Assembly (NCBI GenBank): GCA_016342325.1
Contig: JAEINR010000003.1
Span: 35,106-99,105, forward strand
Direction: 5' to 3'
DNA from: Desulfobacterium sp.
GTDB lineage: Bacteria; Desulfobacterota; Desulfobacteria; Desulfobacterales; Desulfobacteraceae
DNA: 64,000 bases
Shown: positions 15,383 through 35,395 of the stretch, piece by piece
Layout of the letters: each line of letters starts with the position of its first letter
How positions within the stretch are numbered: the stretch's first letter is position 1
Notes under the pieces: model-generated
Databases searched by the model: none
What the model saw: only the letters and a program-made list of their open reading frames with translations
What the model was told of the DNA's origin: nothing
Translations under genes and position numbers: made by a program

Positions 15383-18121
15383 ATGAATTTTATGCAGGGA
15401 ATCGTTTTTGTCTATGATCCTGTGGCGGCTGGGAAAAATGATTGTTTTACCGTGAAACTCGAGGAGAGGAGATGGAACGGGAAACGGTGGTGTTCCCAAA
15501 GCGTTGACCAGATTTTTACCGTGTCGGATCTCAAGCGTTTCGGCAGCCGCATGGTGGATAAAAACCTGTTTGCCGCGGCCTTCCGGAGTGAATCGGAATT
15601 CCGGAGTGCCGAAGCGCGCTTTTTTTCCGGAGACGAGGAGTTTACCCGGCTTCGGATTTCCACAGTCGAGGTTCCGGAATTTATAAAAAACGCCGCAAAA
15701 TCAAAGTCGCTCTGTGACAGTAACGGTTCTCCTTTCGGATTCAAGGTGATCCGGGATGCCATGCCCGGTGTGGCACTGGCGGAGGCAGATGGAGAATTTG
15801 CGGTCTCTGTGACGTTGAAGGGCAAAAGGATGTCCCTTGCGGACTATGTGCTTCCAGGGCCGCATATGGCGGCGGTGTTCGGAAAAACCGTGATCACCCT
15901 GAAAACCGGTTTTCCCGGGGATTTTTTCAAGCGGTTTCCCTGTGGAAAGCGGTTTCCTGTCCAAGATTATGATCGGGTGGTGGATCTTCTTGCCGGCTTT
16001 TCCGATCACATCGCAATTCTTCTTCCGGACAGGAAGGAGATGCGGGTGATTCGTCCCGAGGACCTGGAACCGGTGCTCTCCTTTGATGGGGATCTGCGGT
16101 TTGCTGATCTGGGATTTAATTATCCCGGGGGGATTCATGTCTCGAAAACGGAAACCCGTGAAACCATATTTGACCGTGAAAAACACCTGGAGCTCCACAG
16201 AAACCCGGCCCAAGAGGCGTATTATAAAAAGGTTCTGCAGGAAGCAGGCGCCGCCTTCCGGGGCGCATCCCGGGGGGACTGGTTCTTTTCGTCCATGGGG
16301 TTGGAATCGGTGCTCAGGGTGTTGGAAGGTCAGGGCTTTCAGCTCTTGGTGGAAGGAAAACCCTTGCGCACGGATGCCAAAATCTCCTGGCGCCTGTCGG
16401 TTATGGAAGACATGATTTGTGTGGGCGGAGAGATCTCCTTTGGAAAGAACCGGACCGATTTTGAAGGGTTGTTTGACGGTTTTCTGTGCGGACAGTTCTG
16501 GTTTGAGCTTCCGGACGGTTCCTGCGGCTTCATGGGAAAAGCCGTGGGAGAGGTGCTGAAGAACCTTGAAGCTCGGGGGGATTTCAAGGATGATGCGGTT
16601 CTGTTCAGCCGGTTTGACTTTGCCCATGTGGCAGAGGTGATGGCCGGTGCTGGCCATGTGACCCGGGATGCCGGATTCTTGGATCTGAATAATTTTGGGG
16701 ATGCCCGGCAACATGATGACCCCTTTAAACTATCTGCCGGCCTTGAAACCATTTTAAGACCGTATCAGAAGCTGGGGACAGGCTGGCTTTACGGACTGAA
16801 AAAAAGAGGGCTTTGCGGCATCCTGGCAGATGATATGGGATTGGGGAAAACCCTCCAGGTCCTGGCCTTTCTCAAAGGGCTTAAAGACGCCGGTGAGACA
16901 GGCCCTTCACTTCTGATCGTTCCGAAGACCTTGATCTGGAACTGGGAGTCGGAGATCCTTAAATTCACACCGGATCTCGATTTCAGGCTGCATACCGGCG
17001 TTGACAGAACCCGGGATAAGAAAAAACTCACGGGCTGTGATCTGGTGATCACGTCCTATGCCCTTGTTCTGAAGGACGCGGATCTGTTTAAAAGCATCTT
17101 CTGGAACAACCTTATCCTGGACGAGGCCCAGGCCATCAAGAATCCGGATGCCCGGACAACCCGGGAGATTAAAAAACTGGGTGCCGATTTCAGGCTGTCC
17201 CTTTCCGGGACCCCGGTGGAGAATCGCCCACTGGATCTCTGGAGCCAGTTTGATTTTCTTATGCCCGGATTCCTTGGCACCCGGGACGGGTTTCAAGATC
17301 TTTATGAAACCGGGAAAAGCCCGGATGCCCTCAAGACCCTGGTGCACCCTTTTTTGCTCCGAAGGCTGAAAAGCCAGGTATGCAGGGAACTGCCGCCTAA
17401 AACAGAGGAGATCCTTTATTGTGATTTTGAAGATGAACAGAAAGCGCTTTACGACAAGGTGCTTGGCAAGGAGCGGAACCGGCTTTTCCATGGCAAGGCC
17501 GGGGATAACGAGGGGGCAGAATCCGGAGCGATCCATATCCTTACGGCACTGTTGAGGCTTCGCCAGATCGCCTGCCATCCGGCCCTGTCCGGGGAAGATA
17601 TTCCAGGGGATATTTCAAGCGGAAAACTGTCACGGGTGTTGGCCACCGCCCTTGAAATCATTGAAGGCGGGTATAAAATTCTGGTGTTCTCCCAGTTTAC
17701 AGGACACCTGAAAAAAGTGCGGGAATGCTTTGATGGTGCGGAAATCCCGAGCTTTTATCTGGACGGCAGTACAACAGACCGGAAAACCGTGATTGACGAT
17801 TTCAAGTCCAGCAAAGGCCCCTGCGTGTTTTTTATTTCCCTGAAGGCCGGCGGTGTGGGGCTGAACCTGACGGAAGCCGGATATGTGTTTCTCCTGGATC
17901 CCTGGTGGAATCCTTCGGCGGAAAATCAGGCTGTGGACCGGAGTCACCGGATCGGCCAGGATAGTCCTGTCACCGTTTACCGATTTATCACCAAGGGGTC
18001 CATCGAAGAGAAGGTGGCGCTGTTACAGAAGAAAAAAACCGCCATGGTTCAGGCGGTTGTCGGGGATGGGGATGGGGCAGTTCCCTTTACCGAAGCGGAA
18101 CTGGCGGATCTCCTTGGTTGA
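15383..18121 (+). CDS. SNF2-family (SWI2/SNF2) ATPase/helicase
   Basis: LADDMGLGKT, LDEAQAIKN, LSGTPVENR, VFSQFT, ISLKAGGVGLNL, QAVDRSHRIGQ; AAGGAGG RBS before ATG 15383. Confidence 0.92.
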   Translation: MNFMQGIVFVYDPVAAGKNDCFTVKLEERRWNGKRWCSQSVDQIFTVSDLKRFGSRMVDKNLFAAAFRSESEFRSAEARFFSGDEEFTRLRISTVEVPEFIKNAAKSKSLCDSNGSPFGFKVIRDAMPGVALAEADGEFAVSVTLKGKRMSLADYVLPGPHMAAVFGKTVITLKTGFPGDFFKRFPCGKRFPVQDYDRVVDLLAGFSDHIAILLPDRKEMRVIRPEDLEPVLSFDGDLRFADLGFNYPGGIHVSKTETRETIFDREKHLELHRNPAQEAYYKKVLQEAGAAFRGASRGDWFFSSMGLESVLRVLEGQGFQLLVEGKPLRTDAKISWRLSVMEDMICVGGEISFGKNRTDFEGLFDGFLCGQFWFELPDGSCGFMGKAVGEVLKNLEARGDFKDDAVLFSRFDFAHVAEVMAGAGHVTRDAGFLDLNNFGDARQHDDPFKLSAGLETILRPYQKLGTGWLYGLKKRGLCGILADDMGLGKTLQVLAFLKGLKDAGETGPSLLIVPKTLIWNWESEILKFTPDLDFRLHTGVDRTRDKKKLTGCDLVITSYALVLKDADLFKSIFWNNLILDEAQAIKNPDARTTREIKKLGADFRLSLSGTPVENRPLDLWSQFDFLMPGFLGTRDGFQDLYETGKSPDALKTLVHPFLLRRLKSQVCRELPPKTEEILYCDFEDEQKALYDKVLGKERNRLFHGKAGDNEGAESGAIHILTALLRLRQIACHPALSGEDIPGDISSGKLSRVLATALEIIEGGYKILVFSQFTGHLKKVRECFDGAEIPSFYLDGSTTDRKTVIDDFKSSKGPCVFFISLKAGGVGLNLTEAGYVFLLDPWWNPSAENQAVDRSHRIGQDSPVTVYRFITKGSIEEKVALLQKKKTAMVQAVVGDGDGAVPFTEAELADLLG

Positions 18122-18204
18122 TCATGTCCAGGGCCATGGCGGGCGGCGCTCTCCAGGGCGGTCTGTTTCCCGGATTGGCGGCCGACGATCTGGCCGTTGC
18201 AGAT

Positions 18205-18241
18205 CCACAGCGCCATGGGGGCGCTCTCCATGGCGCTGTGG
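18205..18241. terminator. Perfect 14-bp-stem hairpin between convergent genes
   Basis: CCACAGCGCCATGG-N9-CCATGGCGCTGTGG; no U-tract, so terminator role is uncertain. Confidence 0.45.
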
Positions 18242-18250
18242 AATACGCTG

Positions 18251-19267
18251 TTATTCTACGGAATAACCCGGAATAAAATCAGGTTCCCTGACCGTTTTCA
18301 TGGAGATGGCCTCCTCGGGACAAACCGTTGCACATTGACCGCATCCCAGGCATTTTTCTTCGTTCACTTCAGCGATGCCGTCTTTGTTCATGGCAATCGC
18401 TCCAAACCAGCACCGTTCTTCACACAGGCCGCAGGCGGAACATTTGTCGTCCGCAATGGCCGGACTGTAACGGCTTGGATCACAAAGGGAGACACCGTTT
18501 GCCACCAGCATGGAGAAAGACTGACAGCAACACCCGCAGCAATTGCAGATGAACCCGCCGATATCGGCTTTATTCATGGTGACGTGGACAAGGCCCGCCG
18601 CCTGGGCGCTTTCTATGATTTCAAGGGCTTCCGCCTGGGTTACTTCGCGACCGGATCCCCTTTCAATGGTGTATTCCGCCCCCCGGTTCACTTGAAGACA
18701 CACCTCCAAGGGGGCGTCGCATTTACCCATGGTCAGTCTGCACGTGCATTTGGTGACCGCTAATCGATCGGCTTTCTCGATGGTTTGCCTTACGTCTTCC
18801 GTGGTAAGCACTTTCACCTTTCCCGTGTCAATGGATTTATTGACGGGAATAACCCGGGTAAACGGCTTGGGTATGAATTGCTCTATCAACGGTGCCAGCT
18901 TCGGCCATTCCTCCTCCATATACTGTTTCCACAGACCGTAAAAAGCCTTGGGAGCTCCGGGCCAGACAATGCTTGCATCATGGAACTGGGCAATATGAGC
19001 CGGAGCCCTAAAGGTTTCAACCCCGTCTTTCATTCTTTTAAACGCCAGTCCTTTGTGAAATAGATCGGCAAGGTCCGACGCGATTTCTTTTTCACTACGG
19101 TCCAATTTCACCGCTAACGAATTTTTGGTTCCAGGCAAAGAGATCAAAAGTGCAGCCTGTTCTGCATTGATCATGAATTCAAGTATCCGGGGGATCCAAA
19201 TCGAATCTTCATGGAACATATTCGCGGCAAATTGTTGATAGGGTGATTTCTCGGTCATGGTGATCAT
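18251..19267 (-). CDS. Iron-sulfur protein with Cys-rich core and C-terminal 2x[4Fe-4S] ferredoxin domain
   Basis: KCTCR..CDAPLEVC, ICNCCGCCC, CSACGLCEERC, CLGCGQCATVCP. Confidence 0.82.
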   Translation of the reverse strand: MITMTEKSPYQQFAANMFHEDSIWIPRILEFMINAEQAALLISLPGTKNSLAVKLDRSEKEIASDLADLFHKGLAFKRMKDGVETFRAPAHIAQFHDASIVWPGAPKAFYGLWKQYMEEEWPKLAPLIEQFIPKPFTRVIPVNKSIDTGKVKVLTTEDVRQTIEKADRLAVTKCTCRLTMGKCDAPLEVCLQVNRGAEYTIERGSGREVTQAEALEIIESAQAAGLVHVTMNKADIGGFICNCCGCCCQSFSMLVANGVSLCDPSRYSPAIADDKCSACGLCEERCWFGAIAMNKDGIAEVNEEKCLGCGQCATVCPEEAISMKTVREPDFIPGYSVE

Positions 19268-19468
19268 TCTCCAAAAATTAGTAAATGTAAATACTGCACT
19301 TGAGCATGAAATCGGTCGATCTGTGGCCTTTTGTAATCTCTACCTGATCAGCTTTCCATTTCAGCAGCGTGTCTATTTGCTTTTTCTATATTTGGGTCAT
19401 GTTTCTTCTCAGATGGTCCAGCGTTATCCCTGGATCCAGGCTGTGGCATAAAGGTTCCGGGTAAAATT

Positions 19469-20053
19469 TTAAGACCGAACAAACTCAAACAGCAGAGCAT
19501 AATCGTGATCATCAGCAGCCTTGAGAGCTTCAATGTACTTTTGTCTGGTTTTTCCGGATTTTGCCAGATTAGTGCCTTGTCCCCAGGAGAAAATATCCAC
19601 ATTGAATATTTTCTCCAGGATCAGGTCAGCCATATATCTTGAATGCCTGCCATTGCCATTCGAAAATGGATGAATAAAAACAAGCTTGTGATGAAACCTT
19701 GCTGCAAACTCATCCGGAGGATATGTGTTGAATTCTATCCATGCGTTTGCATCATCGCATAGTGTTTGCAACTCCACCTCAATCAAGCGGGGCGGGACCC
19801 CGATATTTTTGTCGGTCTTCCGGAATTTGCCGGCCCAGGACCAGACGTTTGAAAACATCTTTTTGTGCACATCACAAATAAACTTGGGATCCAAGCTATT
19901 TCTTTTTTTCAGTTTGCTTCCCCAGGTCATGGCTTCTTTGATGTTTTCGGCCTCCCAGAAGTCTAATTCCCCCCTGGTTGATATATGCGTCAGCAAAAGT
20001 CCCTGAAGTTCATCGTAATCAAGCGGAGTTGCATCTTTTTCGTATTCGATCAT
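19469..20053 (-). CDS. Mobile mystery protein B (Fic domain)
   Basis: Fic motif HPFSNGNGRHSR; DATPLD..E N-terminus; WAGKFRKT; paired with an HTH gene; lower GC than flanks. Confidence 0.88.
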   Translation of the reverse strand: MIEYEKDATPLDYDELQGLLLTHISTRGELDFWEAENIKEAMTWGSKLKKRNSLDPKFICDVHKKMFSNVWSWAGKFRKTDKNIGVPPRLIEVELQTLCDDANAWIEFNTYPPDEFAARFHHKLVFIHPFSNGNGRHSRYMADLILEKIFNVDIFSWGQGTNLAKSGKTRQKYIEALKAADDHDYALLFEFVRS

Positions 20054-20526
20054 GACTTGTTATTTTTGTCCCACAAAGATGACGGAGAATCTAAGATATC
20101 ATCCACAATACTTTTAAATATGCTTTCACGGTTTTTCTCCTCAAGATTCTGACCTTCCAAGTTCATGGTATGCATGATCCTGTTGAGTTTTTTTCGCGCT
20201 TTGGATGTGGCCTGTTTCTTTACCGTATCTTCTAAGCTTGACCGGGGGACAAATCCATATACAAACACGCAATCGAGTTCGTCTGCTACCCGCTGCATGG
20301 TTTTTATCGTAAGGCTGCCTGTGAGTTCGTCCTGCTCTATCCTGGGAATCCTGGAGCTATGCACGCCAAGGCGGCCCGCCAATTGACGCATATTCATCCC
20401 AAGCGCATCCCGGATCGCACGAATCCATCCCCGCGCCGGTCTGTTAACCGAAGAAAGGACTGAAAACTGCTTTAAGGTCTTGTCCGATTGCTCTCTAATT
20501 AGTTTTTGCTGTTCTTTTCGTTTCAT
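20050..20526 (-). CDS. Mobile mystery protein A (XRE-type HTH)
   Basis: PARGWIRAIRDALGM..QLAGRLGV, HTMNLEGQ; 4-bp overlap with the Fic gene. Confidence 0.88.
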   Translation of the reverse strand: MKRKEQQKLIREQSDKTLKQFSVLSSVNRPARGWIRAIRDALGMNMRQLAGRLGVHSSRIPRIEQDELTGSLTIKTMQRVADELDCVFVYGFVPRSSLEDTVKKQATSKARKKLNRIMHTMNLEGQNLEEKNRESIFKSIVDDILDSPSSLWDKNNKS

Positions 20527-20566
20527 ATCAATACATATATATAAGTGGTTACGGTTAATTTATTTA

Positions 20567-20595
20567 TATATACATATGCAAAACGTGGTTGTCAA
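20567..20595 (-). promoter_or_regulatory. Sigma70-type promoter of the mobile mystery operon
   Basis: TTGACA-17 bp-TATATA on the minus strand, about 40 bp upstream of the start codon. Confidence 0.6.
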
Positions 20596-20813
20596 ACTAT
20601 ATATATATAATGGTTGTTTGCCTTTTATTACCAAATGTTTCAATCCTCAATTGTCCGAATCCTAACCGTTTTCGTTCACCCGTTGAACAACCAGTGGTTG
20701 TAAATTCATCTCGATTCGTTTGGAATAACGAGTTGACTGGTTAGTGATTTGTATTTTTGACAACTGGATGGCGGGACTGACCCAATTCTGCCTGTTTCCT
20801 TGGCGGTCACAGC

Positions 20814-20892
20814 TTAGCCTCTTAGCTCTGATTTTCGTGTTTTTTTGGCAAGAGAATCAGAAAAACGCTTTGGTTCTGGCTTGTCCAGGTTA
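20814..20892 (+). repeat. Dispersed intergenic repeat family A, copy 2
   Basis: TTAGCCTCTTAGCTCTGATTTTCGTG...GGCAAGAGAATCAGAAAAACGCTTTGGTTCTGGCTTGTCCAGGTTA; same orientation as copy 1. Confidence 0.82.
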
Positions 20893-20897
20893 GGGGT

Positions 20898-21161
20898 CTC
20901 CTGGAACTTGAGGGTTCCCTGGTAGTGGCGGGTGCCGGTGTATCCCCCTTGCCCGCGTCCAGCCTGTCCGCGATATAGTGGGCAAGCTTTGCGGCCGTGT
21001 TGAGATTCCTGAGTTTCAGATCCTCGGGCACCGTGAGTCCGAACTTGGCAGAGACCTTTGCAAAGATCTCCACCTGTTTTACCGTGTCAATGCCCAGATC
21101 CGCCTCAAGGTCAAGATCCGCATTAAGCATGTCAGTGGTGTCGCCAGTCTGCTCGGCAATG
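20898..21161 (-). pseudogene. Relic of the megasynthase: truncated ACP4-like domain joined to a DH fragment
   Basis: 20957-21161 aligns to 24551-24755 (about 12 mismatches in 205 bp, manual count); 20898-20934 is identical to 22505-22541; helix I missing and an in-frame stop just upstream. Confidence 0.82.
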
Positions 21162-21399
21162 TAAAGACAGCACCTTCTACCGGATCAGGTTTCCTTTTCC
21201 TCTCCACGCATCTCTTCTGCAGTTCAGAACAACATGGAAGTGTTGGGGATCAAGGAGGAAAAGGGATGGGGGCTAAAATGAAGGGATTTTGTGGGCTGAG
21301 TGCAAAAAACGTAACCGAAGATGAAAAAAAGGTAACTTTTTCGGGGATTGTTTTGAGTGCCTGTCTTTTAATTGTTTTAGATAACAAGTGATTATGAAT

Positions 21400-21416
21400 T
21401 TGGCACGCTCTTTGCT
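21400..21416 (+). promoter_or_regulatory. Sigma54 (-24/-12) promoter
   Basis: TTGGCACGCTCTTTGCT matches TGGCAC-N5-TTGC(A/T); upstream of 21533. Confidence 0.75.
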
Positions 21417-21532
21417 TTCGCTTAGGGCGTAAACGCGAATCCATGGAAGGAAAAACGGATTTTCAAGGTGGTTCTTTTTGTAAAAAACAAAAACGAAACT
21501 ATAGGATAATTACTCTCAAAGGAGAAACCAAC

Positions 21533-21838
21533 ATGATAACAAACAGGGAACGGACATATTCCAGTGCTGCCTTCCAGATGGAAAATCCGGGAATTTTTTA
21601 TCAATTCAAGTTGTGGAAAACCCCCTCAGAACCGATGTTCGGCCTTGTGAAAAAAGGCTCCAGGGCCCTGGCATCCATTAACGCCGGAGACATTCTTACC
21701 ATGACCTATTATTTTCAGGATAAAACCATGCCAACCGAAAGGCGGGTCACCCGGGTCAAGTCCATTACCGACGGCAATGACCTGGGGTATAAAGATCACT
21801 TTGTGATTGCCTTGGACCTTGATTCCATTGAAAACTGA
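21533..21838 (+). CDS. Small degenerate PilZ-like protein
   Basis: AAAGGAG RBS; YQFKL..GDIL.M.YY..RV.SIT..GY.DHF.IAL pattern recalls deltaproteobacterial PilZ-like proteins; RxxxR and DxSxxG motifs absent. Confidence 0.5.
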   Translation: MITNRERTYSSAAFQMENPGIFYQFKLWKTPSEPMFGLVKKGSRALASINAGDILTMTYYFQDKTMPTERRVTRVKSITDGNDLGYKDHFVIALDLDSIEN

Positions 21839-21964
21839 TAGGATGCGGTATGAACCCATTTTTAATGGAAACAGTGACATCGGTGTGGAGGGCAGGCATG
21901 GAGACCCATGCCCGCCGGGGTGAGGATGACCACCTGCTAATGAATCATCCCCACATCAATTCAA

Positions 21965-24900
21965 TCAGGCCGGGGAGGGAACGCCATAGGTGACCCTGTG
22001 GTCGATCCGGTCTTCCTGGGCCAGCTTGTTGAGCTTGACCATCTTAAAGTCGATGACCTCTACAAAGAGGTTGCCCTCCTTGTCCACAAGCTGGAGCTGG
22101 TAGGTGTTGGTTTCCTTATCAGAGGCGGTCTTTGTGGTCAGGCAGTAGTACTCCTGGTCCTTTTCCGGCTTCTGGTAAAACTTCATGGTCTTGATGTCAT
22201 AGGGCAGCACTGTCTGGGACGAGGTAAAGAACTCGAATAAACCGCCTGTCTGGAACATGGCATCCACCAACACCACTGGGGACTGGAGGTTGGGCTCGGT
22301 CACGCCCGTGAAGAACTCCTTTTGGCTGGCATCTTTGACCGTGGTCACCAGGGTGGTTTCGTCAAAGGAGTTGACGTCCGTGATGGTGTTGAACAGTCCG
22401 TCCATGAACAGTCGTCTTGGGTGGTATACGATCTCCCCAAGCGTGCCGTCCACCTTGACCGGGTTGAACTCGGGGAGTTCCACACGCTTGTTCCCAAGCG
22501 GGGACTCCTGGAACTTGAGGGTTCCCTGGTAGTGGCGGGTGGGATCCCCCATCACCACACCCTTGGGGTTCTTGAACCGGGAGGTGATGGTGCAGTCGAA
22601 CAGCCCGTCTGCCTTGCGGTTACCCGTGACTTCCAGTTCCTTTGGCCGTCCCTTGAGGATCTTAATGCCGTAGGGGATGGAAAAGTCGGAGAGTTCCGTA
22701 AGCATCTCCTGGTCCCCGGCAAGGGCGGTTGCCGCTTCGGCCAGGGTTTCAATGCCCGTGGCCCCGAGAAACACCGGCACATCTTCCATGGCGTGGTCCA
22801 GGAGGAACAGATCCCGCTTCAGATCCAGGGTCCTTCTGAACTCGATCCTTGCGTCATCCTTTGACACCATGTCATCGAGGAAGGGGAAGGCTGGGTTGTT
22901 GGGCTCGCCCAGGAGACCGTCCCGGTCAAAGCTGTAGTCAAGGCCTGAGATAATCACTTCTACCTCGGTTCTGTCCAGAAGATCCGCCATAAAGAACCCG
23001 ATGCCCTGGTCCAGGGGCAGGAATTCGAGCCCCCGCTCTTTTAGTACCGTGATCACCGTGGGGTTGGTGGCCATGCCCGCGCCTGACCAGGCAGTCCAGT
23101 CATATACCTTGAAGTTTCGTTCTGGGAAGAGTTGCTGCTGCCGTAGCGCCATCTTGGCGATGAGGTCGTTGGCCGCAGTATAGTCTGCCTGGCCTTCGTT
23201 GCCGAATCGTGCCGTCACCGAAGAGAAGGTGCAGAAGAAACCATACTCCCTGGATGCCATGGCTGACAGGAGGTTGAGCATTCCCTTGACCTTGACATCC
23301 ACCACCCGCTGGAAGGCGTTGAGCTCTTTCTTGGGGATGAACTGGCTCATCTCAAGGCCGGCTGCGTGGATGACACCGTGGATGGTGTCATGGCTTGCCA
23401 CGGCCTTGTTGACCGCATCCGGGTCAGTCACGTCGGCGGCATGGTAGGTCACATGGACCCCCAGGGATCTTAAGGCGTCGATGTTGGCTGCGGATTCCCG
23501 CATGTTCACGATCCTGTCCACCCGTTTGCGGATCTCCAGGGGACGGCCCTTGGGCATCTCTTTCTTGACCAGGGCCATGATGCCGGCTTGGTCGAGATCC
23601 GTTGCCAGGAAGGCATCGTCCATACCGAAGATGTCGCTGCTGCCCAGGATTACAAGATCGGTTTTATAGGTTTTGACGACCTGTTTGAGGATCTCAAAGG
23701 TGATGCCCCTTGCGCCGCCGGTGACAAGCAGGGTGGTGTTTTTTTCGATCATGGGTGCCTTTGTTTCCGGCACCTGCTGATCCATGGTCAGGACATACCG
23801 TTTTCCGTCCCTGTATCCCACTTCGCACCGGTCACAGTCCGAGCTCAGCTCGTCTATGAAGGTGGCAATGGTTTTTTCCACGTCTGCTCCATGGGACTCG
23901 GCCGTGAAATCAACGATCTTGACCCGGGTTTGGGCCATCTCCTTGGTCACGGTCTTCAGCAGGCCGGACAGGCCTGCAAAGCCCGGATGGATCCTGCCGC
24001 AATTCTTGCCGTAGGGAAAGACAATGGAGTCAAACCCCAGGCTTGCGATGAGGGAGCCTGGCTGGCCGAGCTTGTCATACAGCCCCTTTATGAGGACAAA
24101 CATGGATGTGACGGCGGTGTTGACATAGGTAGCATCCATTGCCGTGTCGGAAAAGTAGTGGTCCAGATGGGCAAAGTGGAGAAGACCGTTGATCTTTTTG
24201 TGCCGGGTCTTCAACTGCTTGACGCAGGCTTCGACGCTGGCCGTATCGCCCAGGTTCACCGTGGTGTCGGCTTTTTTTCCGGCACCGAGGGTGATCACCT
24301 TTCCTTTTTGGGCCTTGATGGCCTGGATCGCCGTGTCGGCAAATCCGTGGCTGTCAAGGGTGACCACAAAGGTCTTGTTGCTGAAGGGGTTGGCCTTGGG
24401 TTCGGCAACCGGGGTTTCTTTTATCCCCATCACCATGCGTTTGACCAGGGAGAGGGGATCGGCTGCTGCCGGGGTATTCACTGGGTTCTCAACCGGTGCG
24501 ATCGGTGCGACCGGTGCGGATTTTCCGTTCTTTGGGGCGGGTGCGCCGGTATCCAGCCTGCCTGCGATATAGTGGGCAAGCTTTGCGGCGGTGTTGAGAT
24601 CCCTGAGTTTCAGATCCTCGGGCACCGTGAGTCCGAACTTGGCAGAGACCTTTGCAAAGATCTCCACCTGTTTTACCGTGTCAATGCCCAGATCCGCCTC
24701 AAGGTCGAGATCTGCATCCAGCATGTCGGTGGTGTAGCCGGTCTGCTCGGCAATGATCTCCTGGATGGTGGTCACAGGGCCTGCCGGCTCATAGGTCCCT
24801 TTCTCTTTCGAGTTTTTTTTGTCACCGCCACCCTTGGGCGGGGTGTCGTTGTCGTCCGGTCCTGCCATGGTGTCCAGGTAGTCGGCAAGCTTCGCAATGG

Positions 24901-27900
24901 TGTTGAGATCCCGAAGTTTCAGGTCTTCAGGCACGGTCAGCCCGAAATGGGTGGACGCCTTTGCAAAGATCTCCACCTGTTTCACCGTGTCGATGCCCAG
25001 ATCCGCCTCAAGGTCGAGATCCGCCTCTAACATGTCGGTGGTGTACCCGGTCTGCTCGGCAATGATCTCCTTTACCGTGTCCATGGTCTTGGAACCCGCT
25101 GGTGGGGCCGCTGGAACAACCGGAGCAGCTGCTGGTGCGGTTGGGGTGTCGCTTGTGGTCACCGTGGTGCTGAAGTAGGCACCCAGCTTGGCAATGGTGT
25201 TGAGATCTCTTAACTTCAGGTCTTCAGGCACGGCCAGTCCGAAATGGGTGGCCGCCTTTGCAAAGATCTCCACCTGTTTTACCGTGTCAATGCCCAGATC
25301 CGCCTCAAGATCGAGATCGTCCTCGAGCATGTCGGTGGTGTACCCGGTCTGCTCTGCAATGATCTGTTTGATGGCGTCATCCATTGCGGCATCGCCAGCG
25401 CCATCGTCGGCACCAGGGGCGTCTTTCGCAATGGCCGTCACGCCGGCCTTCTGGCCCACGTAGGCTGCAAGCTTTGCAATGGTGTTGAGATCCCGGAGTT
25501 TCAGGTCCTCGGGCACGGAAAAACCGAACTTACCTGCTGTCCTTGCAAAGATCTCCACCTGTTTTACCGTGTCAATGCCCAGATCCGCCTCAAGGTCGAG
25601 ATCGTCCTCAAGCATGTCGGTGGTGTAACCGGTCTGCTCGGCAATGATCTCCTTGATGATGGAAAGGGGCCCTGGTCCGGCTTGGCTCGGTAGGGCCGGT
25701 GCTGCCAGGGGAGGCGCAATGGCTTCCACCTGGGGTGCTGTAACTTCCAGGACCTTGGGAACCGGGTTTGTCTCGCCATCCACCACACAGAGGGTGTTGT
25801 CGATGATCTTGAGCTCCGGGGTGTCGGTTTCGCTGATACGCTGGAGCCATCCAAGGTAAGCCGCGTTGTTCTCAAATTCATTCTCCTGGATGCGTTTGAT
25901 GAACACAAAGGCAAAATGGGATCCGAATCCCGCGGCCAGGTGAAGCCCGTATTCGGCATCAATGGCGCCGGTGTTGGTGAAGTTGAGATCCTTGAAGTGA
26001 TCGGGTATGTTCTTCAGGTTGGCAATGGGCGGGGCCTTGCGCTTCTGAAGGGCCTTGACCAGCACCACATCCTCCACCGCAGCCCCCAGGGTATGACCGG
26101 TGAAGCCCTTGGTGTTGGAGATGGCGACCTTGCTCAGATGGTCCTTGAAGGTGGTCCTGAGGGCCGTTACCTCGGCATCGGCACTGCCGCCCCTGGCCGG
26201 GGTGTAGGTCTCGTGGGACATGAACAACAGCTTGTCCGCATAGTCCTCAACCTTGAGGCCGTGGCGCTTTTCCACGATATCGACGAATCGCTTCATCTCG
26301 TGGGACATGTGGGGCACGTCGATGTTAAAGGTGTGATAGGCGCTGTTGGCCATGTGGGTTCCCAGGATCTCGGCCTGGCCGTTCATTCCCCTGGCCTTGA
26401 CCGTTGACTCCCGCTCCACGATGAGGCCCACGGCCCCGCTGCCGAGGATGGTGCCGTTGCGCTCCGCATCAAAGGGTTTGGCTGCCTCGGAGACCCGTTT
26501 CTTTACGGTGGCGGCACCCAGGGCAAGAAAGCCCGTGCCCACCCACTGGTTCTGGGCCGATGAGGTGGCGTTCTCGCCGCCTACTACGATGACCCGCTTG
26601 CAGCGGCCCACCCGGATCCAGTCCTCGGCAATGCCCATGGCCTGGGTGGTGGATGCGCAGGCGCTGGATACCAGGGTGTTGGGTCCCTTAGCCCGGATGA
26701 TCTGGGCAAGGTGGGCCGCCCCCAGGGGACAGTGGTTGGAAAGGAAGTTCCGGTCAAACTTGTAGGGCCCGAGATCACTTCGTTTCCGTGACTTGATCTT
26801 GAAGAACCAGTCGGTGATCTCCTCCTTGACGGCAATGTCCTGGATTTTTTCCATGAGGTAGTAGTAGATGTTCTCAAATTCCTCATAGGGTTTCAGGTAG
26901 AGCCGGTCGTAGAGGTATTTTTCCATCTCGTTGATCAAGGTCTCGCTGTTGGGAAAGAGCGATGTGATGATAACGCCGGTATCGTCCTGCATCTCCTTGG
27001 GCAGGGCAAATCCGTCCGGGATCATCCGGGTGCCGGTGGAGGCCTTTTTATACTGCATCACAAGGGGGATGCCAGCATCCTTGAGGGCTTCGATACCTGC
27101 AGCAACGGCCAGGGACATGCTGATGTCGTACTGGGCCTTGATGCCGTACTCGTCGGTGAGGTCAAAGTAGCCCAGCTGGCCTGCAAGGTGGATCACATCC
27201 TCGGTGCGGGTGATCTCCACGAACCGTGCATTGCCGTCGGGCTGTTTAAAGAGCCGGGTGATGTTCTTGTCCGTGATTCGCTTCTGGTCTTCCAGATCCA
27301 GGGGCTCGATAAAGTTGGTCCCGGCGAGGATCTGGTCGAAGTTGTCCGCGGCAAAAACCCGCTTTGCCTTGCCAGGAAGTCCCACGGACACGCCTGAGAT
27401 CACGATGGGTTCGGTGGTGAAGTCAAACCGTTCCACGGCCTCGATGGCGGTGTTTCGCTTTTGGCGAAGGAACTCGTCATGGAGAAGCTTGTCCGTGATA
27501 TCCTGGTTCTTCATCTTAAATGCGGCAAAATCATCATCCGTGGAAATCCGGGTCGATTTTTCATCCCGTGCAAGGACAGCTACCGTGGAGGGTGCATTCG
27601 TGGTCTCTGGCAGGGCGGGTTTTCTCGTGAAGATGCTGTTGAATGATTTAAGATGGTTGCGGCACTCCTTAAAGCTTTCCACCTCGCCTTTTTTGGCATC
27701 AACGGTGACGGCCGTCTGGTACTCGGCAATGTTGATGTTCTTCAAAAGGTTGGTGAGCAGCCGGGACGGGCCGATCTCGATGAAGTGGGTCTTGCCTGCG
27801 GAATAGACAGACTCAATGGACCGGATGAACTCCACCGGGTTGGTGATCTGCTTTGCAAGGAGATCCTTGACCGCCCGCCGGTTCTCGGGGTAGGGCGTTG

Positions 27901-30900
27901 CCGTGACATTGGAGATCACCCGTCCGAAGCGGGTTTCGTTGAATGTGATGGTGTCAAGAAAGTCCCTCAGTTCCTGGGCCGCCTCGCTGAACAGCGGGGT
28001 GTGGAAGGCGCCTGAGAGGTTGAGCTTCTTGTACACCACATGGTTCTCGGACAGATAGGAGCAAAAGTTCTTGATGGCTTCGGCATTTCCCGAAACCGCG
28101 GTCTGGTTCTCGCTGTTCTTGTTGGTGATGTAGATGTCGGAAAGAAAGGACTTCCGGATGAAGCTGGCTGTCTCTTTTTCGTTCCTGAACACCACCATGA
28201 TCTTGCCCGGATGTTTCAGGCTTGCCTGCTTCATGAGCTCCGATCGTTTGATGATCAGCCGCATGGCAGGGTCAAAGTTGAGCATGCCGCTGCAGAAAAG
28301 GGCGGTGTACTCTCCGACACTGTGGCCGATGAAGAGATCCGGGCTGAATCCCTGGGCGCTGAGCCGCTCAAACAGGGCGGCCGACGACAGGAACACGGCC
28401 GGCTGGGTGTTTTCCGTGAGGTTCAGCCGTTCGTCATTTCCGAACATGATCTCAAGCAGGGAGTAGCCCCGCTCCTTGACAAAGATCGCCTCCCCCTGGT
28501 CCATGAAGGCCCGGATCACGGAATCCTTGTCATAGAGGTCCTTCATCATGCCGGGGCGCTGGGCGCCCTGGCCGGAAAGAAGGGCCACCATGCGTTGCTT
28601 TTTGCCGTCTCCGTCCGCCGAGTAGGAGACCGTGGTTTCTGTGGCAGGCGTCTGGAAGTTCTCCTGGGCCGCGGTGGAAACCGCTGTGCCGTTGAACTTT
28701 CGTTCCCCGGTCAGGGCGGCGGGCAGGGTGGTGATGAGCATGTGGCAGTGATTGCCGCCGATGCCGTTGACATTGGAGGCGATCTTCATGGGCCTGTTTT
28801 TGCCCACCGGGGTCAACCCGGCACAGTGCTTGAGGATCGTGCTGTCCTTCATGGTGGAGTTTTCTGCTGAATAGTTGAAATCCGGCAGCACGGTTCGTTT
28901 CTGGTTCATCAGTGCAAGCTTTGCCAGGGCAACGGCTGGGTTGGCCGCCTTGAAATAGCCGAACTGGGGCTTGACGTTTCCGCAATAGACCGGGTGGTTG
29001 AAGCATTTTTCCGCCACCTGTTTTTCGATCATGTCCCCAAGGACGTTGGAAAAGGCGAACAGGTCCAGGTGGTCGACATCCTTTTTCCGGGTGTTGTTTT
29101 TCTGGTAGCACTCGTTGATGGTTTTTACAAAGGTGGTTTCAGAGGGTGCCAGAAGGTGGTCCGGAGCACTGGACTTGATGGCGATCTGGTTGAGCTCAGC
29201 CAGGATGGTCATTCCGGCCTCTTTGGCCTTCTTATATGTGGTGAGCACGTGGATGGCAGCGCCCTCGCCCATGACGTAGCCGTCGGCCCGCTGGTCAAAG
29301 AAGTTGCACTCGTTATCCGACAAAAGGCCCAGGCGTTTGAAGGCCATGAGCACCGCAGGATAGAGATTGGCGTCCACGCCCCCTGCCAGGACATAGTCAA
29401 GGTCCTTGAACAACAGGTTCCTGGCCCCGTTTCTGAGGGCGATCACCGAAGACGCACAGGAGGCGTCCACCACATAGTTGGCGCCGTTAAGCCCAAAGTG
29501 GTTGGCGATCCTGCCCGAAATGATGTTGGACAAAAGTCCGGGGGTGGTGTCTTCGTTGTTCTCGGGAATCCGGGCGCGGATGGCGTCGATAAGTTCCCCT
29601 GCAACAGCGTCGGCCTTTCCTTCTGCCAATCCCTGGGTCTGTTGGATGATCTCCCTTACCAGGTTTTTCCTGACCCTGAGGATGTTCTTGTTCTGTCGCT
29701 CTCCAGGGATGGTGCCGAGGATGACCCCGGTACGGTTGCCCTCTGTAAGGTACTTGCCAAGGCCGGATGTTTCGATGGCCTCGTCTGCTGCATCCAGACC
29801 ATAGAGCTGGCCCGGCTCCAGGGAGCGAACCGTCTTCGGGGGGGTCCGGTATTTGGCGTTGTTGAACTTGAAATCCTTGATCACTCCCGCTTTTACCATG
29901 GGAAGGTGGTAGATGGATTTTTTGTCAAAGGCGGCATAGGCGTCGTTGGAAAAACGTTCCTCAGGGATGGGAGAAAGCTGTTTCTCTCCGGTTTCCAGGT
30001 GTTGCCAGAACTCCTGGGTGTTTTTTGCCCCGGGCATGCAGACACCGAGGCCGGCCACAACGATTCTGTCATCGTTGAAGTCGTAGTCCGTGTCCGTGAA
30101 GATGGTTCTTTCTACGGGGGTATAATCCTTGCGATACTCCTCCACAACCATGTGGTAGTTGATGCCTCCGAATCCGTAGGCGCTGATACCGGCCTTTCGG
30201 GTGGCGTTGTTCTCCGGCAGCCAGGGGCGTTGCTCTTCCAGGATGTAGAGGGCGCTGTCCGAGAGATCGTGGTTATGGGAGAGCTTCTCAAATTGGCCGT
30301 TGGGGGGCAGGATGCCGTTCTTGACCGCCATGATCGCCTTGGCTAGGCCTGCGGCCCCGGCGCCGCCCAGGAGATGGCCGATCTGGGACTTGACCGAACT
30401 GATGCCGGCCTTTGTATCTCCGTAGATCATCTTCAGGGTGCTGAGTTCTGCCTGGTCGCCCATGATGGTGCTGGTGCCGTGGGCCTCGATAAAGCCGATG
30501 TCAGCGGGGGTGATGTCTGATTTCATCTTTTCAAAGCAGCGTTCCAGGGCCAATGCCTGGCCCTGGATCTTGGGGGCGGCAATGGACTTGCCCTTGCCGT
30601 CGGAACTGGATCCGATGGCCTTGATCACGCCCAGGACGGTGTCACCGTCCCGGAGGGCATCCTTCATCCGCTTGAGAACAAAGGAGGCGGCACCCTCGCC
30701 CAGGACAAAGCCGTCGGCCCGCTCATCAAAGGGGTAGGACCCCTTGGCGGAAAGGGCGCCCATCTTGCAGAAGCCGACAAAGGATTCCGGTGTAAGGTGG
30801 GTGTTGACCCCGCCCACGATCACCTGGTCCACCTCGCCTGCGAGGAGTTCTCCCTGGGCCGCCTCAATGGCGGTGAAGGAGGAGGCGCAGGCAGCGTCAA

Positions 30901-33772: not shown

Positions 33773-33910
33773 GCTGACTTAAAATAAACATTGTCCCGAA
33801 ATCAAAGGGGTTTCTTTGGGGTTGCCTTGTCTCCTTTGGTGTGATAGCTGTGGGAGGGTATACATATAATGGACATGGCGTGTGCAATTTGTGCATGGGA
33901 CGGAGGAAGT

Positions 33911-35395
33911 GTGAAAAAAGAGAGATTGAGCAGTGAAGAGCGGGGGTTTTTCAGGATGGTCTACCATGCCGCCTTTGCCAACCCGTTCAGCGAGCTGAGG
34001 GAAAAGCTGGATCGTAAGATTGCGGGCCATTTTCCGGGACTTTCCAAGAGCGAGAGCGGTGACCGGTACATCCGGGAGATAGACATGCGGATCCGTCGCC
34101 TGGAGAAGGAGGGCAGGGGGCATCTTGACTCCTTCAGCGGCCAGGACAGGAGCATTATCAAGATTGTGTTTCTGTTTGATCTGTTTTACAAGTTCCGGGA
34201 CCGGTTTGACCGGCTCATCGTGGATCAGATCAAGGCCGGGGATGAATCTGTACCTGTTGTGTTTGCAGACGAGGCCATGGCCATTATCCGAAGACGGGGG
34301 ATTCCGGAAGAGACCATCCTCCACTATTTTGCCTTTTCCTACCAGCTGAGGCGGGCTTTTTTCTTCATCTCCCACTCCCTTGTGGGCAACAGCCAGTGCA
34401 TGAAGACCCTGCGACGCAATCTGTGGAATAATGTTTTTACCCACAATATCGATCTCTACGACCGGTACCTGTGGAACCGCATGGAGGATTTCTCAACCTT
34501 AATCCTGGGGGAGACCGGCACGGGAAAGGGAACTGCGGCCATGGCCATGGGCCGAAGCGGTTATATTCCTTTTGATTTGAAAAAGAGGCGGTTTTCCGTC
34601 AGCTTTACCCGGGCCTTCAGCTCGTTGAACCTGTCCCAGTTTCCCGAGGCCCTGCTGGAATCAGAGTTGTTCGGTCACAAAAAAGGGGCGTTTACCGGGG
34701 CGGTTGAGGACTACCAGGGTGTGTTTGACCGGTGCAGTCCCCACGGCTCCATTCTGCTGGACGAGATCGGAGAGGTGGCGGACCATGTGCAGGTCAAGCT
34801 GCTCCAAGTCCTGCAGGAACGGTTTTTCACCCCGGTGGGAAGCCATTCACAGTCCAGGTTCCAGGGCCGGGTCATTGCTGCAACCAACCGGTCTGTTTCC
34901 GCCATCCTCAACGGAGAGGTTTTCAGGGACGATTTTTATTACAGGCTCTGTTCCGACATCATCGAGGTGCCGCCGTTGCGGGAAAGAATCAGCCAGGACC
35001 CCACCGAGCTGGACGATCTTTTGGAGTTCACGGTGAAGCGGATGGCCGGTTCCGCCTCCGGGGAGCTGACCACCCGGGTGAAGCGGGTCATCAACAAAGA
35101 GCTCGGTCCGGATTACCGCTGGCCCGGAAATGTGAGGGAGCTTGAGCAGTGTGTGAGACGGGTGATGATGCGCAAAAGCTATGAAGGCCGGGAGCAGGCC
35201 GGAAAAAAAGATCTTGGGGAGCGGCTTGCCCAGGGCATCAAGGCCGGAAATATGGCGGTTTCATCCTTAATCGCCGGGTATTGCACCCTGCTGTACCGGG
35301 AGCACAATACCTATGAACAGGTGGCCAAAAGAACCGGGTTGGACAGGCGAACCGTAAAAAAATATATTGACGGTTTTAAGGATAATGTCGCATAA
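33911..35395 (+). CDS. Sigma54-dependent enhancer-binding protein with unrecognised N-terminal domain
   Basis: GETGTGKG, ESELFGHKKGAFTGA, LLDEIGE, WPGNVRELEQ, C-terminal HTH; GGAGG RBS before GTG 33911. Confidence 0.9.
   Translation: MKKERLSSEERGFFRMVYHAAFANPFSELREKLDRKIAGHFPGLSKSESGDRYIREIDMRIRRLEKEGRGHLDSFSGQDRSIIKIVFLFDLFYKFRDRFDRLIVDQIKAGDESVPVVFADEAMAIIRRRGIPEETILHYFAFSYQLRRAFFFISHSLVGNSQCMKTLRRNLWNNVFTHNIDLYDRYLWNRMEDFSTLILGETGTGKGTAAMAMGRSGYIPFDLKKRRFSVSFTRAFSSLNLSQFPEALLESELFGHKKGAFTGAVEDYQGVFDRCSPHGSILLDEIGEVADHVQVKLLQVLQERFFTPVGSHSQSRFQGRVIAATNRSVSAILNGEVFRDDFYYRLCSDIIEVPPLRERISQDPTELDDLLEFTVKRMAGSASGELTTRVKRVINKELGPDYRWPGNVRELEQCVRRVMMRKSYEGREQAGKKDLGERLAQGIKAGNMAVSSLIAGYCTLLYREHNTYEQVAKRTGLDRRTVKKYIDGFKDNVA

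What the first reader, a model, noticed from the sequence alone, without database searches (positions are those of the whole stretch)
24677..25570. All four ACP domains carry Thr instead of the phosphopantetheine-accepting Ser
Seen: every ACP reads EADLGIDTVKQVEIF, with ACG codons at 25568-70, 25283-85, 24986-88 and 24677-79 (residues 2677, 2772, 2871, 2974), and the relic has the same codon at 21083-85. No other Ser lies in the motif. Known: PfaA-type ACPs read LGIDS and PPTases modify that Ser; Ser substitution normally inactivates an ACP. KS, AT, KR and DH catalytic residues look intact, so the gene does not look like a decaying pseudogene. Inference: either carriers are phosphopantetheinylated on Thr by a specialised PPTase, which I know of no established example for, or these ACPs are non-acylated and a trans carrier is used. 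This is the best candidate for an undescribed system.
Basis: partly seen in the sequence, partly recalled or inferred. Interest (0 to 1): 0.92.

Follow-up and report, generated by a model that had tools for sequence, protein, structure and literature searches.

The report
Carrier domains with threonine attachment site
A giant fatty-acid/polyketide-type synthase from a sulfate-reducing bacterium, and a large cross-phylum family of its relatives, carry threonine where every studied acyl carrier protein has the serine that holds the phosphopantetheine arm, which points to an undescribed threonine-linked form of this universal cofactor attachment.

Summary
All four ACP domains of the 3877-aa synthase (21965-33598, minus strand) read EADLGIDTVKQVEIF, with ACG Thr codons at the stated positions, and the Thr sits at the first residue of helix II, where ACPs carry the Ppant-Ser. 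It is not decay. Relatives found without using the ACP, and by an exhaustive HMMER search, form a large clade: at least 560 confirmed stretches in species-representative genomes from more than ten phyla. Every canonical ACP unit in that clade has Thr (230/230 and 401/401), all four Thr codons are used, and Thr and Ser units never share an array. The switch is a block: S-I-K-R to T-V-K-Q. A canonical Sfp-type PPTase lies just downstream of the synthase in most relatives and is fused to it in three. The window's PPTase (1270-2001) is that cognate enzyme, displaced by a 19.9-kb insertion. No trans Ser-ACP is linked. The best reading is that Thr is the Ppant acceptor. This is inferred, not shown. 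The gene family is known (Shulse and Allen Types S and R), but I found no mention of the Thr. In E. coli, ACP S36T is the standard unmodifiable mutant.

The parts
21965..33598 (-). Single 3877-aa iterative type I FAS/PKS-like 'secondary lipid' synthase: ER(NMO)-KS-KS(CLF-like)-AT-KS-ACPx4-KR-DH
   Evidence: ORF. Pfam and NCBIfam domains. Best NCBIfam hit is TIGR02813 PfaA at 928.6 bits, below its cutoff of 1010.1.
31799..33598 (-). N-terminal enoyl-reductase region (two NMO/FabK-like stretches, residues about 1-600)
   Evidence: PF03060 NMO with 2 stretches. TIGR03151 FabK-like at residues 334-591.
30290..31522 (-). KS1 (residues 693-1103), Cys901/His1038/His1074 present
28799..30061 (-). Second KS-like domain (approximate bounds). 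It has Cys1378 but no His motifs, so it is CLF-like.
27740..28579 (-). Acyltransferase domain (residues 1674-1953), GHSVG and AFHT motifs
25919..27451 (-). Third KS-like domain (approximate bounds), Cys2311 and His2502
25436..25669 (-). ACP1; Thr2677, codon ACG at 25568-25570
25151..25384 (-). ACP2; Thr2772, codon ACG at 25283-25285
24854..25087 (-). ACP3; Thr2871, codon ACG at 24986-24988
24545..24778 (-). ACP4; Thr2974, codon ACG at 24677-24679
23132..23734 (-). Ketoreductase domain (residues 3289-3489), Tyr3473
22013..22885 (-). PKS-type dehydratase domain (residues 3572-3862)
   Evidence: invariant His in alignment A1
1270..2001 (-). Cognate Sfp-type 4'-phosphopantetheinyl transferase, displaced 19.9 kb downstream of the synthase
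   Evidence: Pfam ACPS plus AASDHPPT_N. Aligns to Sfp with the GxDxE and WxxKExxxK motifs. Orthologues lie 4-132 nt after the synthase stop in L003, L015, L016, L023, L025, L026 and L028, and overlap its last codons in L021. The flanking response regulator is shared with L003.
33869..35395 (+). Divergently transcribed sigma-54 activator, conserved beside the synthase in at least 16 Desulfobacterales relatives. It is the probable dedicated regulator.
20893..21161 (-). Non-coding relic of the synthase 3' end: an ACP4 copy (94.6% identical to 24552-24755, Thr codon at 21083-85) joined to a 42-nt DH fragment (97.6% identical to 22500-22541)
   Evidence: It is absent from the nearest relative L002, whose homology with the window ends at 21891.
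2002..21964 (.). About 19.9 kb lying between the synthase and its PPTase. It holds chemotaxis genes, an acetyl-CoA-synthetase-like gene, an SNF2 helicase, a Fer4 protein, the HTH-Fic pair and the relic. The segment is absent from the collinear locus L003.

Best explanation
The four tandem ACP domains are the working carriers of an iterative type I fatty-acid/polyketide-like synthase. Their Thr, the first residue of helix II, takes the place of the canonical Ser as acceptor of the 4'-phosphopantetheine arm. The arm is installed from CoA by the cognate Sfp-type PPTase (1270-2001). That enzyme sits directly downstream of, or fused to, the synthase in relatives, and in this genome was separated from it by a 19.9-kb insertion. 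The holo-ACPs would then be loaded by the AT and serve the KS, KR, DH and ER domains iteratively, under control of a conserved divergent sigma-54 activator.

Shown here: the Thr and its structural position; its invariance across a deep clade; the block-wise motif switch S-I-K-R to T-V-K-Q (plus L to F at +7) on helix II; the genetic linkage and fusion with PPTases; the absence of a linked Ser-ACP; and transcription of close relatives.

Inferred: that Thr is actually modified, that the linked PPTase does it, and that the co-varying helix II residues adapt the ACP to that enzyme.
For: (1) The Thr aligns with, and is modelled at, the Ppant-Ser position.
(2) A KR-DH-only query retrieves about 85 homologues at 38-63% identity, plus 25-30% identical type-R proteins, and all their ACPs carry Thr.
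(3) In 80 genome loci, 230 of 230 motifs are Thr, and all four codons are used.
(4) An exhaustive phmmer search (no pattern used) gives, in the top 150 cluster representatives, 107 proteins with only Thr canonical units (401 domains), 43 with only Ser (231 domains) and none mixed.
(5) One branch separates the Thr and Ser classes in a KR-DH tree.
(6) A PPTase lies in the flanks of 55 of 80 loci: 23 within 300 nt downstream, 21 within 8 kb on the same strand, and 3 in the same ORF. Pfam ACPS scores E = 4.6e-13 in L035.
(7) The window's PPTase is orthologous to those adjacent ones, and its neighbouring response regulator is shared with L003.
(8) All 57 Thr-linked PPTases keep the catalytic motifs.
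(9) Only L081 has a Ser-type ACP in its flanks, and the window has none.
(10) Metatranscriptome contigs tile the gene at 88-95% identity.
Against: There is no chemical evidence; nothing here measures a +340 Da adduct. In E. coli, ACP S36T cannot be modified and cannot complement an acpP deletion (PMC3340395), so Ser-to-Thr is normally inactivating, at least with AcpS. The linked PPTases show no visible active-site change that would explain acceptance of Thr. Their similarity to the window's PPTase is 23-99 bits, which overlaps the 42.7 bits scored by Sfp, so a dedicated clade is unproven. PPTase linkage is also found in the Ser-class sister clusters, so linkage shows that these ACPs are PPTase clients, not that Thr specifically is the acceptor. 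A housekeeping AcpP encoded elsewhere in the genome cannot be excluded from a 64-kb window.
Confidence: 0.7

Rival explanations
1. The Thr-ACPs stay unmodified (apo) and act only as structural or docking repeats. Chain growth uses a separate Ser-type ACP, such as housekeeping AcpP, supplied in trans.
For: S36T makes E. coli ACP unmodifiable. No PPTase lies within 10 kb of the synthase in the window or in the Desulfobacula/Desulfobacter/Desulfospira group. One locus (L081) does have a Ser-type standalone ACP nearby.
Against: An unused position would not stay Thr in 401 of 401 and 230 of 230 units while its codon drifts. Decayed units in relatives do lose it, for example DLGIDAVKQ in P0246, which shows what relaxation looks like. 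79 of 80 loci and the whole window lack a linked Ser-ACP. PPTases are adjacent or fused in most relatives. The megasynthase has no other carrier domain.
Confidence: 0.1
2. The Thr carries a different group, or is modified only inefficiently. For example, it might be acylated directly as an oxoester, bear another phosphodiester-linked cofactor, or serve as a deliberately poor PPTase substrate that throttles the amount of holo-enzyme.
For: Nothing here identifies the adduct. Thr hydroxyls are acceptors for other phosphodiester modifications in biology (general knowledge). The block change on helix II shows that the surface around the site has been remodelled.
Against: The only modifying enzyme consistently linked or fused is a canonical Sfp-type PPTase with intact CoA/Mg and catalytic motifs. 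A direct ester without a roughly 20-A arm could not reach the KS, KR, DH and ER sites (established FAS/PKS mechanism). Tandem arrays are thought to raise throughput (PMC3098273), which is at odds with a throttle.
Confidence: 0.12
3. The feature is an artefact or decay: a pseudogenised synthase, or a collapsed or mis-assembled repeat that propagated one mutant ACP.
For: All four Thr codons in the window are the identical ACG. ACP arrays break assemblies: there is an N-gap in L001 and many database entries are 'partial'. A relic copy lies downstream.
Against: The ORF is an uninterrupted 3877 aa with intact catalytic motifs. The same Thr is present in hundreds of independent assemblies, including isolate genomes, with varied codons. 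Close relatives are transcribed.
Confidence: 0.01

Closest known systems
Tandem ACP domains of PfaA-type PUFA synthases and heterocyst-glycolipid synthases (motif LGIDSIKRVEIL)
   Same: They are clearly homologous. They share the TGYP.EML..DLEADLG[IV]D leader, the four-helix fold, the tandem arrays with low-complexity linkers, and a position between KS/AT and KR-DH.
   Different: The attachment residue is Thr, not Ser. It co-varies with +1 Ile to Val, +3 Arg to Gln and +7 Leu to Phe. The two classes never mix within one array. The protein scores below the TIGR02813 PfaA cutoff and has no FabA-type DH/isomerase partner.
'Secondary lipid synthase' Type S (Desulfobacterium autotrophicum HRM2) and Type R (Koribacter, Solibacter, Elusimicrobium, Roseiflexus) of Shulse and Allen 2011 (PMC3098273)
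   Same: Taxa and architecture match. L042 (Elusimicrobium minutum) is KS-AT-KS-like-ACP4-KR-DH with a PPTase 14 nt downstream, as described for Type R. The window protein is the Desulfobacteraceae single-gene form. That paper suggested Type S may be the 'core' fatty acid synthase, because HRM2 lacks fabA and fabZ.
   Different: The paper does not mention the Thr: 'threonine' and 'serine' each occur zero times in its text. The products remain uncharacterised. I did not examine HRM2 itself, so assignment of the window protein to Type S is by architecture and taxonomy.
E. coli AcpP S36T
   Same: It is the same substitution at the same structural position.
   Different: There it abolishes 4'-PP modification and function, and it is used as the standard apo-locked control (PMC3340395; PMC13343975). 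Here Thr is the conserved wild-type state of a very large family.
Sfp-type (group II) PPTases such as Sfp, PfaE, HetI and AASDHPPT
   Same: The window's PPTase and all 57 Thr-linked PPTases have the two-lobed Sfp-type architecture and the G.P, SHS, G.D.E and W..KE...K motifs.
   Different: Their only linked clients have Thr at the acceptor site. No sequence feature explaining this was found.
Megasynthases with an integrated PPTase domain (fungal FAS alpha subunit; enediyne PKSE with KS-AT-ACP-KR-DH-PPTase). This comparison is from my own knowledge.
   Same: L035, L038 and L040 end in ...ACPn-KR-DH-PPTase within one ORF, the same logic of self-activation in cis.
   Different: Those known systems modify a Ser. 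The window's own enzyme is not fused.

Membership tests
Acyl carrier protein / PP-binding domain (PF00550) | Significant match to the PP-binding profile | tested here: met
   PF00550 at 104.5 bits against a cutoff of 20.8, four stretches. NCBIfam ACP models also match.
Acyl carrier protein / PP-binding domain (PF00550) | Four-helix bundle with the attachment residue at the N-terminus of helix II | tested here: met
   AF2 model with pLDDT 91.8 and helices at 2-13, 34-48, 58-61 and 64-75. Residue 34 is the Thr. Foldseek TM about 0.8 to solved ACPs.
Acyl carrier protein / PP-binding domain (PF00550) | Conserved Ser in the (D/E)xGxDS motif as Ppant acceptor | tested here: not met
   Thr in all four domains and in every canonical unit of the clade.
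Acyl carrier protein / PP-binding domain (PF00550) | Covalent 4'-phosphopantetheine installed by a PPTase | not testable with these tools
   Needs mass spectrometry. The only evidence here is genetic linkage and fusion with PPTases.
PfaA of PUFA synthases (TIGR02813) | Score above the curated family cutoff | tested here: not met
   928.6 bits against a cutoff of 1010.1.
PfaA of PUFA synthases (TIGR02813) | Tandem ACPs followed by KR and a PKS-type DH | tested here: met
PfaA of PUFA synthases (TIGR02813) | Partner with FabA-type DH/isomerase domains (PfaC), needed for cis double bonds | tested here: not met
   No FabA-like domain in the synthase or in the window ORFs that were scanned.
Shulse and Allen Type R/S secondary lipid synthases | KS-MAT-CLF-ACP(3-6)-KR core with an associated PPTase; found in Desulfobacteraceae, Acidobacteria, Elusimicrobia and Chloroflexi | tested here: met
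   Architectures, PPTase linkage, taxa, description in PMC3098273. HRM2 itself was not examined.
Sfp-type PPTase (for 1270-2001) | Two-domain fold of about 230 aa with the Mg/CoA motifs GxD(I/L)E and WxxKE(S/A)xxK | tested here: met
   Pfam ACPS plus AASDHPPT_N. Alignment to Sfp 1QR0/4MRT shows GLDIEE and WTIKEAFLKYIKKG.
Sfp-type PPTase (for 1270-2001) | Being the cognate activator of this synthase | tested here: met
   Orthologues lie immediately downstream of the synthase in eight Desulfobacterales loci. L003 shares the flanking response regulator. This is genetic evidence only.
A distinct 'Thr-specific' PPTase clade | Thr-linked PPTases form a clade separate from Ser-linked ones, or carry diagnostic residues | tested here: inconclusive
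   HMM scores of 23-99 bits for Thr-linked enzymes, 42.7 for Sfp and 22-26 for two Ser-linked sister enzymes. No diagnostic motif residue was found, and there were too few Ser-linked comparators.

The most novel reading that the evidence does not exclude
O-(4'-phosphopantetheinyl)-threonine is a natural and widespread post-translational modification. It defines a whole class of carrier domains (LGIDTVKQ) in lipid megasynthases across more than ten bacterial phyla. In Desulfobacteraceae, which were reported to lack fabA and fabZ, that synthase may be the housekeeping fatty-acid synthase. The Thr/helix-II block and its co-inherited PPTase would then form a carrier-PPTase pair insulated from the cell's Ser-ACP/AcpS system.
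Probability: 0.55. Interest if true: 0.88.

Novelty: new variant of a known kind. Interest (0 to 1): 0.78.

Why it matters
The Ser-Ppant linkage is treated as universal for ACP, PCP and ArCP domains. PROSITE and Pfam logic, antiSMASH-style 'active ACP' calls, and the routine use of S-to-T or S-to-A mutants as apo controls all assume it. A large natural class with Thr would add a new protein modification. It would show that PPTases can use a secondary alcohol, and it might give an orthogonal carrier/PPTase pair for labelling and pathway engineering. Annotation rules that would score these synthases as inactive would also need changing. The carriers include abundant sediment sulfate reducers, soil Acidobacteria and Chloroflexi whose lipid products from these synthases are unknown. 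The question is directly testable with one co-expression and one mass spectrum, and cultured carriers are available.

Tried and rejected
(1) Literature. Ten full-text searches covered the motif strings (LGIDT, DTVKQ and others), threonine phosphopantetheinylation phrases, PUFA synthase plus threonine, and follow-ups on Types R and S. None found a description of the Thr class. The library holds open-access papers and bioRxiv only, so absence is not proof. The HRM2 genome paper's 'pfa' hits were just 'Pfam'.

(2) An exact look-up of the window's synthase in the contig collection found nothing.

(3) PPTase specialisation. Motif-by-motif comparison of 57 Thr-linked PPTases with Sfp and two Ser-linked sister PPTases showed no diagnostic change. 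An attempt to harvest more Ser-linked PPTases from PfaA-type contigs gave a contig too short to help, so I dropped the phylogenetic test.

(4) Apparent mixed Thr/Ser arrays. Six proteins flagged by the alignment-based count turned out, on inspection, to have only Thr in canonical units plus one decayed or highly divergent extra unit.

(5) I considered and rejected recoding, pseudogene status and assembly artefact.

(6) I did not model a PPTase-ACP complex, because the tools return no coordinates for pocket analysis.

Full report
**1. The observation**

The region lies inside one uninterrupted 3877-codon ORF on the minus strand, 21965-33598. LGIDT occurs four times, at residues 2677, 2772, 2871 and 2974. 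Each Thr is encoded by ACG, at 25568-70, 25283-85, 24986-88 and 24677-79, and each sits in the identical 15-mer EADLGIDTVKQVEIF. The downstream relic has ACG at 21083-85, within a stretch broken by stop codons. No Ser is conserved among the four ACPs.

Pfam recognises four PP-binding domains. The whole protein reads NMO-type ER, KS, a second KS-like domain, AT, a third KS-like domain, four ACPs, KR and a PKS-type DH. KS1 (Cys901, His1038, His1074), AT (GHSVG) and KR (Tyr3473) have their catalytic residues. The second KS-like domain has the Cys but not the His motifs, so it is CLF-like.

phmmer against PDB sequences places the Thr in the column of the Ppant-Ser of AcpM and PigH. An AlphaFold2 model of ACP1 (pLDDT 91.8) is a four-helix bundle in which the Thr is the first residue of helix II.

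**2. Thr is a family trait, not decay**

To avoid circularity I first searched with the KR-DH tail only, which contains no ACP. About 85 homologues at 38-63% identity came back, from Desulfobacula, Desulfotignum, Desulfamplus, Desulfoluna, Desulfosarcina, Spirochaetota and Myxococcota. Every ACP visible in them reads LGIDTVKQVE[IV]F. More distant hits (25-30% identity) split into an Acidobacteria-type group with EADLGIDTVKQAEMF and a group with the canonical EADLGIDSIKRVEIL. Many entries are 'partial' only because assemblies break in the ACP repeats. In L001 the gene is one long ORF interrupted by an N-gap.

The best 80 loci span Desulfobacterota, Spirochaetota, Bacteroidales, Chloroflexota, Acidobacteriota, Elusimicrobiota, Myxococcota, Actinomycetota, Verrucomicrobiota, Gemmatimonadota, Planctomycetota and Dormibacterota, plus two archaeal-labelled MAGs. 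They include the cultured Desulfospira joergensenii, Desulfocicer vacuolatum, Desulfobacter vibrioformis and Nonomuraea rosea. The nearest relative of the window is a Desulfobacteraceae MAG at 87-88% identity.

In these loci, 230 of 230 ACP motifs have Thr, encoded by ACG (107), ACC (82), ACT (23) and ACA (18). The codon drifts while the residue stays fixed.

That scan was seeded with the motif, so I also ran an exhaustive phmmer of one ACP domain against 1.84 billion cluster representatives. It gave 4832 hits at E <= 1e-3. Among the best 150 proteins, 107 have only Thr in their canonical units (401 domains), 43 have only Ser (231 domains), and none mixes the two. Six apparent exceptions were single decayed or highly divergent extra units, such as DLGIDAVKQ in P0246.

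The two classes share the leader TGYP.EML..DLEADLG[IV]D and differ as a block on helix II: S-I-K-R-V-E-I-L against T-V-K-Q-[AV]-E-x-F. In a neighbour-joining tree of KR-DH, with ACPs excluded, a single branch separates the Ser class from the Thr class. This is consistent with one ancient switch.

**3. Link to a PPTase**

The ORF at 1270-2001 is a canonical Sfp-type PPTase. Pfam finds ACPS plus AASDHPPT_N, and it aligns to Sfp with GLDIEE and WTIKEAFLKYIKKG. Its orthologues occur throughout Desulfobacteraceae.

An HMM built from these orthologues finds a PPTase in the flanks of 55 of the 80 loci. In 23 it starts within 300 nt after the synthase stop. In 21 it lies within 8 kb downstream on the same strand, with a regular gap of about 5.5 kb in Acidobacteria. 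In three mutually divergent loci (L035, L038, L040) it is in the same ORF as the Thr-ACPs. Pfam confirms ACPS at the C-terminus of the 3824-aa L035 protein (E = 4.6e-13). Of the 25 loci without a PPTase, seven have 2.1 kb or less of downstream sequence.

In L003 the order is synthase, PPTase (4 nt after the stop; 55% identical to the window's enzyme), then a response regulator. That regulator is the orthologue (E = 2.5e-136) of the one abutting the window's PPTase at 542-1273. The window is therefore collinear with L003, except that about 19.9 kb is inserted between the synthase and its PPTase. The inserted DNA carries chemotaxis genes, an SNF2 helicase, a Fer4 protein and an HTH-Fic pair.

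At the synthase-proximal edge of the insertion lies the relic. It consists of an ACP4 copy (94.6% identical) joined to a 42-nt DH fragment (97.6% identical), and it is not shared with the nearest relative L002. The relic is thus a scar of that rearrangement.

A divergent sigma-54 activator (33869-35395) is conserved beside the synthase in at least 16 relatives.

**4. Testing the rivals**

*A trans Ser-carrier.* phmmer with E. coli AcpP, a generic PCP and the window's ACP, run against all ORFs of 55 aa or more in the 80 loci and the window, found a Ser-type standalone ACP only in L081. A motif scan of all six frames of the window found none.

*Decay.* This is excluded by the intact ORF and by conservation.

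*Expression.* Contigs from marine-sediment metatranscriptomes tile the whole gene at 88-95% identity. DNA carry-over cannot be excluded.

*A visibly specialised PPTase.* This is not supported. All 57 Thr-linked PPTases keep the G.P, SHS, G.D.E and W..KE...K motifs, with no diagnostic substitution. Their scores on the Desulfobacteraceae PPTase HMM (23-99 bits) bracket that of Sfp (42.7), while two Ser-linked sister PPTases score 22-26. The Ser-class sister clusters also carry a PPTase domain. Linkage therefore says 'these ACPs are PPTase clients' rather than 'this PPTase is Thr-specific'.

**5. Most likely mechanism**

The Sfp-type PPTase binds CoA-Mg2+. The Glu of W..KE activates the hydroxyl of the helix II N-terminal Thr, which attacks the beta-phosphate of CoA. 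This gives O-(4'-phosphopantetheinyl)-Thr and 3',5'-ADP. The four holo-ACPs are then malonylated by the AT and serve the KS, KR, DH and ER domains iteratively to build a fatty-acyl-type chain.

The co-varying residues at +3/+4 and +7 lie on the same helical face as the Thr. They plausibly re-tune recognition by the PPTase and by partner domains.

The modification, the enzyme responsible and the role of the co-variation are all inferred. Why Thr is used is unknown. Insulation from the cell's AcpS/AcpP system, or a phosphodiester more resistant to beta-elimination or to ACP phosphodiesterase, are speculations of mine.

**6. Comparison with what is known**

The synthase family was catalogued by Shulse and Allen (PMC3098273). 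Type R is KS-MAT-CLF-ACP3-6-KR with a downstream PPTase, in Koribacter, Solibacter, Elusimicrobium and Roseiflexus. Type S is Desulfobacterium autotrophicum HRM2, for which they suggested a 'core' FAS role because fabA and fabZ are missing. L042 (Elusimicrobium minutum) matches Type R. That paper never mentions Thr or Ser.

[quoted passage not shown] It is still used as the apo control (PMC13343975). Ten full-text searches found no report of Ppant on Thr or of the DTVKQ motif. The library is limited to open-access papers and preprints.

NCBIfam has no dedicated model. The best hit is PfaA, below its cutoff. Source annotations call these proteins 'SDR family oxidoreductase' or 'KR domain-containing protein'.

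**7. Verdict**

It generalises to a very large, deep, cross-phylum class of carrier domains. It rests on conservation, structural position and PPTase linkage or fusion, not on chemistry. 'Specialised PPTase' remains open.

I rate this a new variant of a known kind: a PfaA-like carrier/PPTase system with a different acceptor residue. Interest is high because it contradicts a textbook invariant and can be tested with one co-expression and one mass spectrum.

Noticed in passing
window 20893-21161 (-), and 2002-21964: A non-coding relic of the synthase 3' end (an ACP4 copy joined to a 42-nt DH fragment) marks the edge of an insertion of about 19.9 kb that separates the synthase from its PPTase. 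Locus L003 has the uninterrupted order synthase-PPTase-response regulator. The relic is absent from the nearest relative L002.
   Followed up: yes
window 19469-20053 (-) and 20050-20526 (-): An overlapping HTH (Xre-type) and Fic/DOC gene pair lies right next to the relic. It looks like a toxin-antitoxin-type or mobile module and may have travelled with the inserted segment.
   Followed up: partly
window 33869-35395 (+): A sigma-54-dependent activator, transcribed divergently from the synthase, is conserved in the same position in at least 16 Desulfobacterales loci. This implies sigma-54 control of the megasynthase.
   Followed up: partly
L035:3638-15109, L038:3-3932, L040:1-3132: Three divergent relatives encode the PPTase as a C-terminal domain of the Thr-ACP synthase itself (...ACPn-KR-DH-PPTase). 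L035 and L038 come from MAGs labelled as archaea (Methanobacteriota, Thermoplasmata), which could reflect horizontal transfer or mis-binning.
   Followed up: partly
P0246, P0330, P0245, P0289, P0383 (proteins): Some Thr-class arrays contain one extra degenerate ACP-like unit: DLGIDAVKQ in P0246, a divergent terminal DLGIDSELF in P0330, LGITSIK in P0245, and decayed units in P0289 and P0383. Units that lose the Thr also lose the rest of the motif.
   Followed up: partly
L033, L039, L047, L052, L053, L058, L061, L062, L066, L070, L073, L077 and others: In Acidobacteria-type loci the PPTase sits at a very regular distance of about 5.4-5.7 kb downstream of the synthase on the same strand, so a conserved set of intervening genes belongs to the cluster. 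Shulse and Allen mention an acetyl-CoA carboxylase gene in Koribacter. I did not annotate these genes.
   Followed up: no
L082, L083, L084 (Ser-class sister clusters): The nearest Ser-class relatives sit in split clusters (ER-KS, AT, ACP-KR-DH, KS, DH-PPTase fusion). Nearby genes include sulfotransferase, APS kinase, PAPS reductase, phosphodiesterase-family genes and glycosyltransferases, which suggests a sulfated or glycosylated lipid product.
   Followed up: no
window 38597-40300 (-): A single ORF fuses LytB/IspH (the last step of the MEP isoprenoid pathway) to a UbiA-family prenyltransferase.
   Followed up: no
window 49362-50774 (+): A single ORF fuses DUF169 to dephospho-CoA kinase (CoaE), the last enzyme of CoA synthesis. 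CoA is the Ppant donor. The ORF is followed by carboxyltransferase, biotin-carboxyl-carrier and methylmalonyl-CoA mutase genes.
   Followed up: no
window 35554-36486 (+): A PlsC-type acyltransferase lies two genes upstream of the synthase. A homologue was seen in only one relative's flank (L008), so linkage is weak.
   Followed up: partly
window 28799-30061 (-): The second KS-like domain keeps the active-site Cys (C1378) but lacks both His motifs. This is unusual for a chain-length-factor-type domain, which typically lacks the Cys.
   Followed up: no
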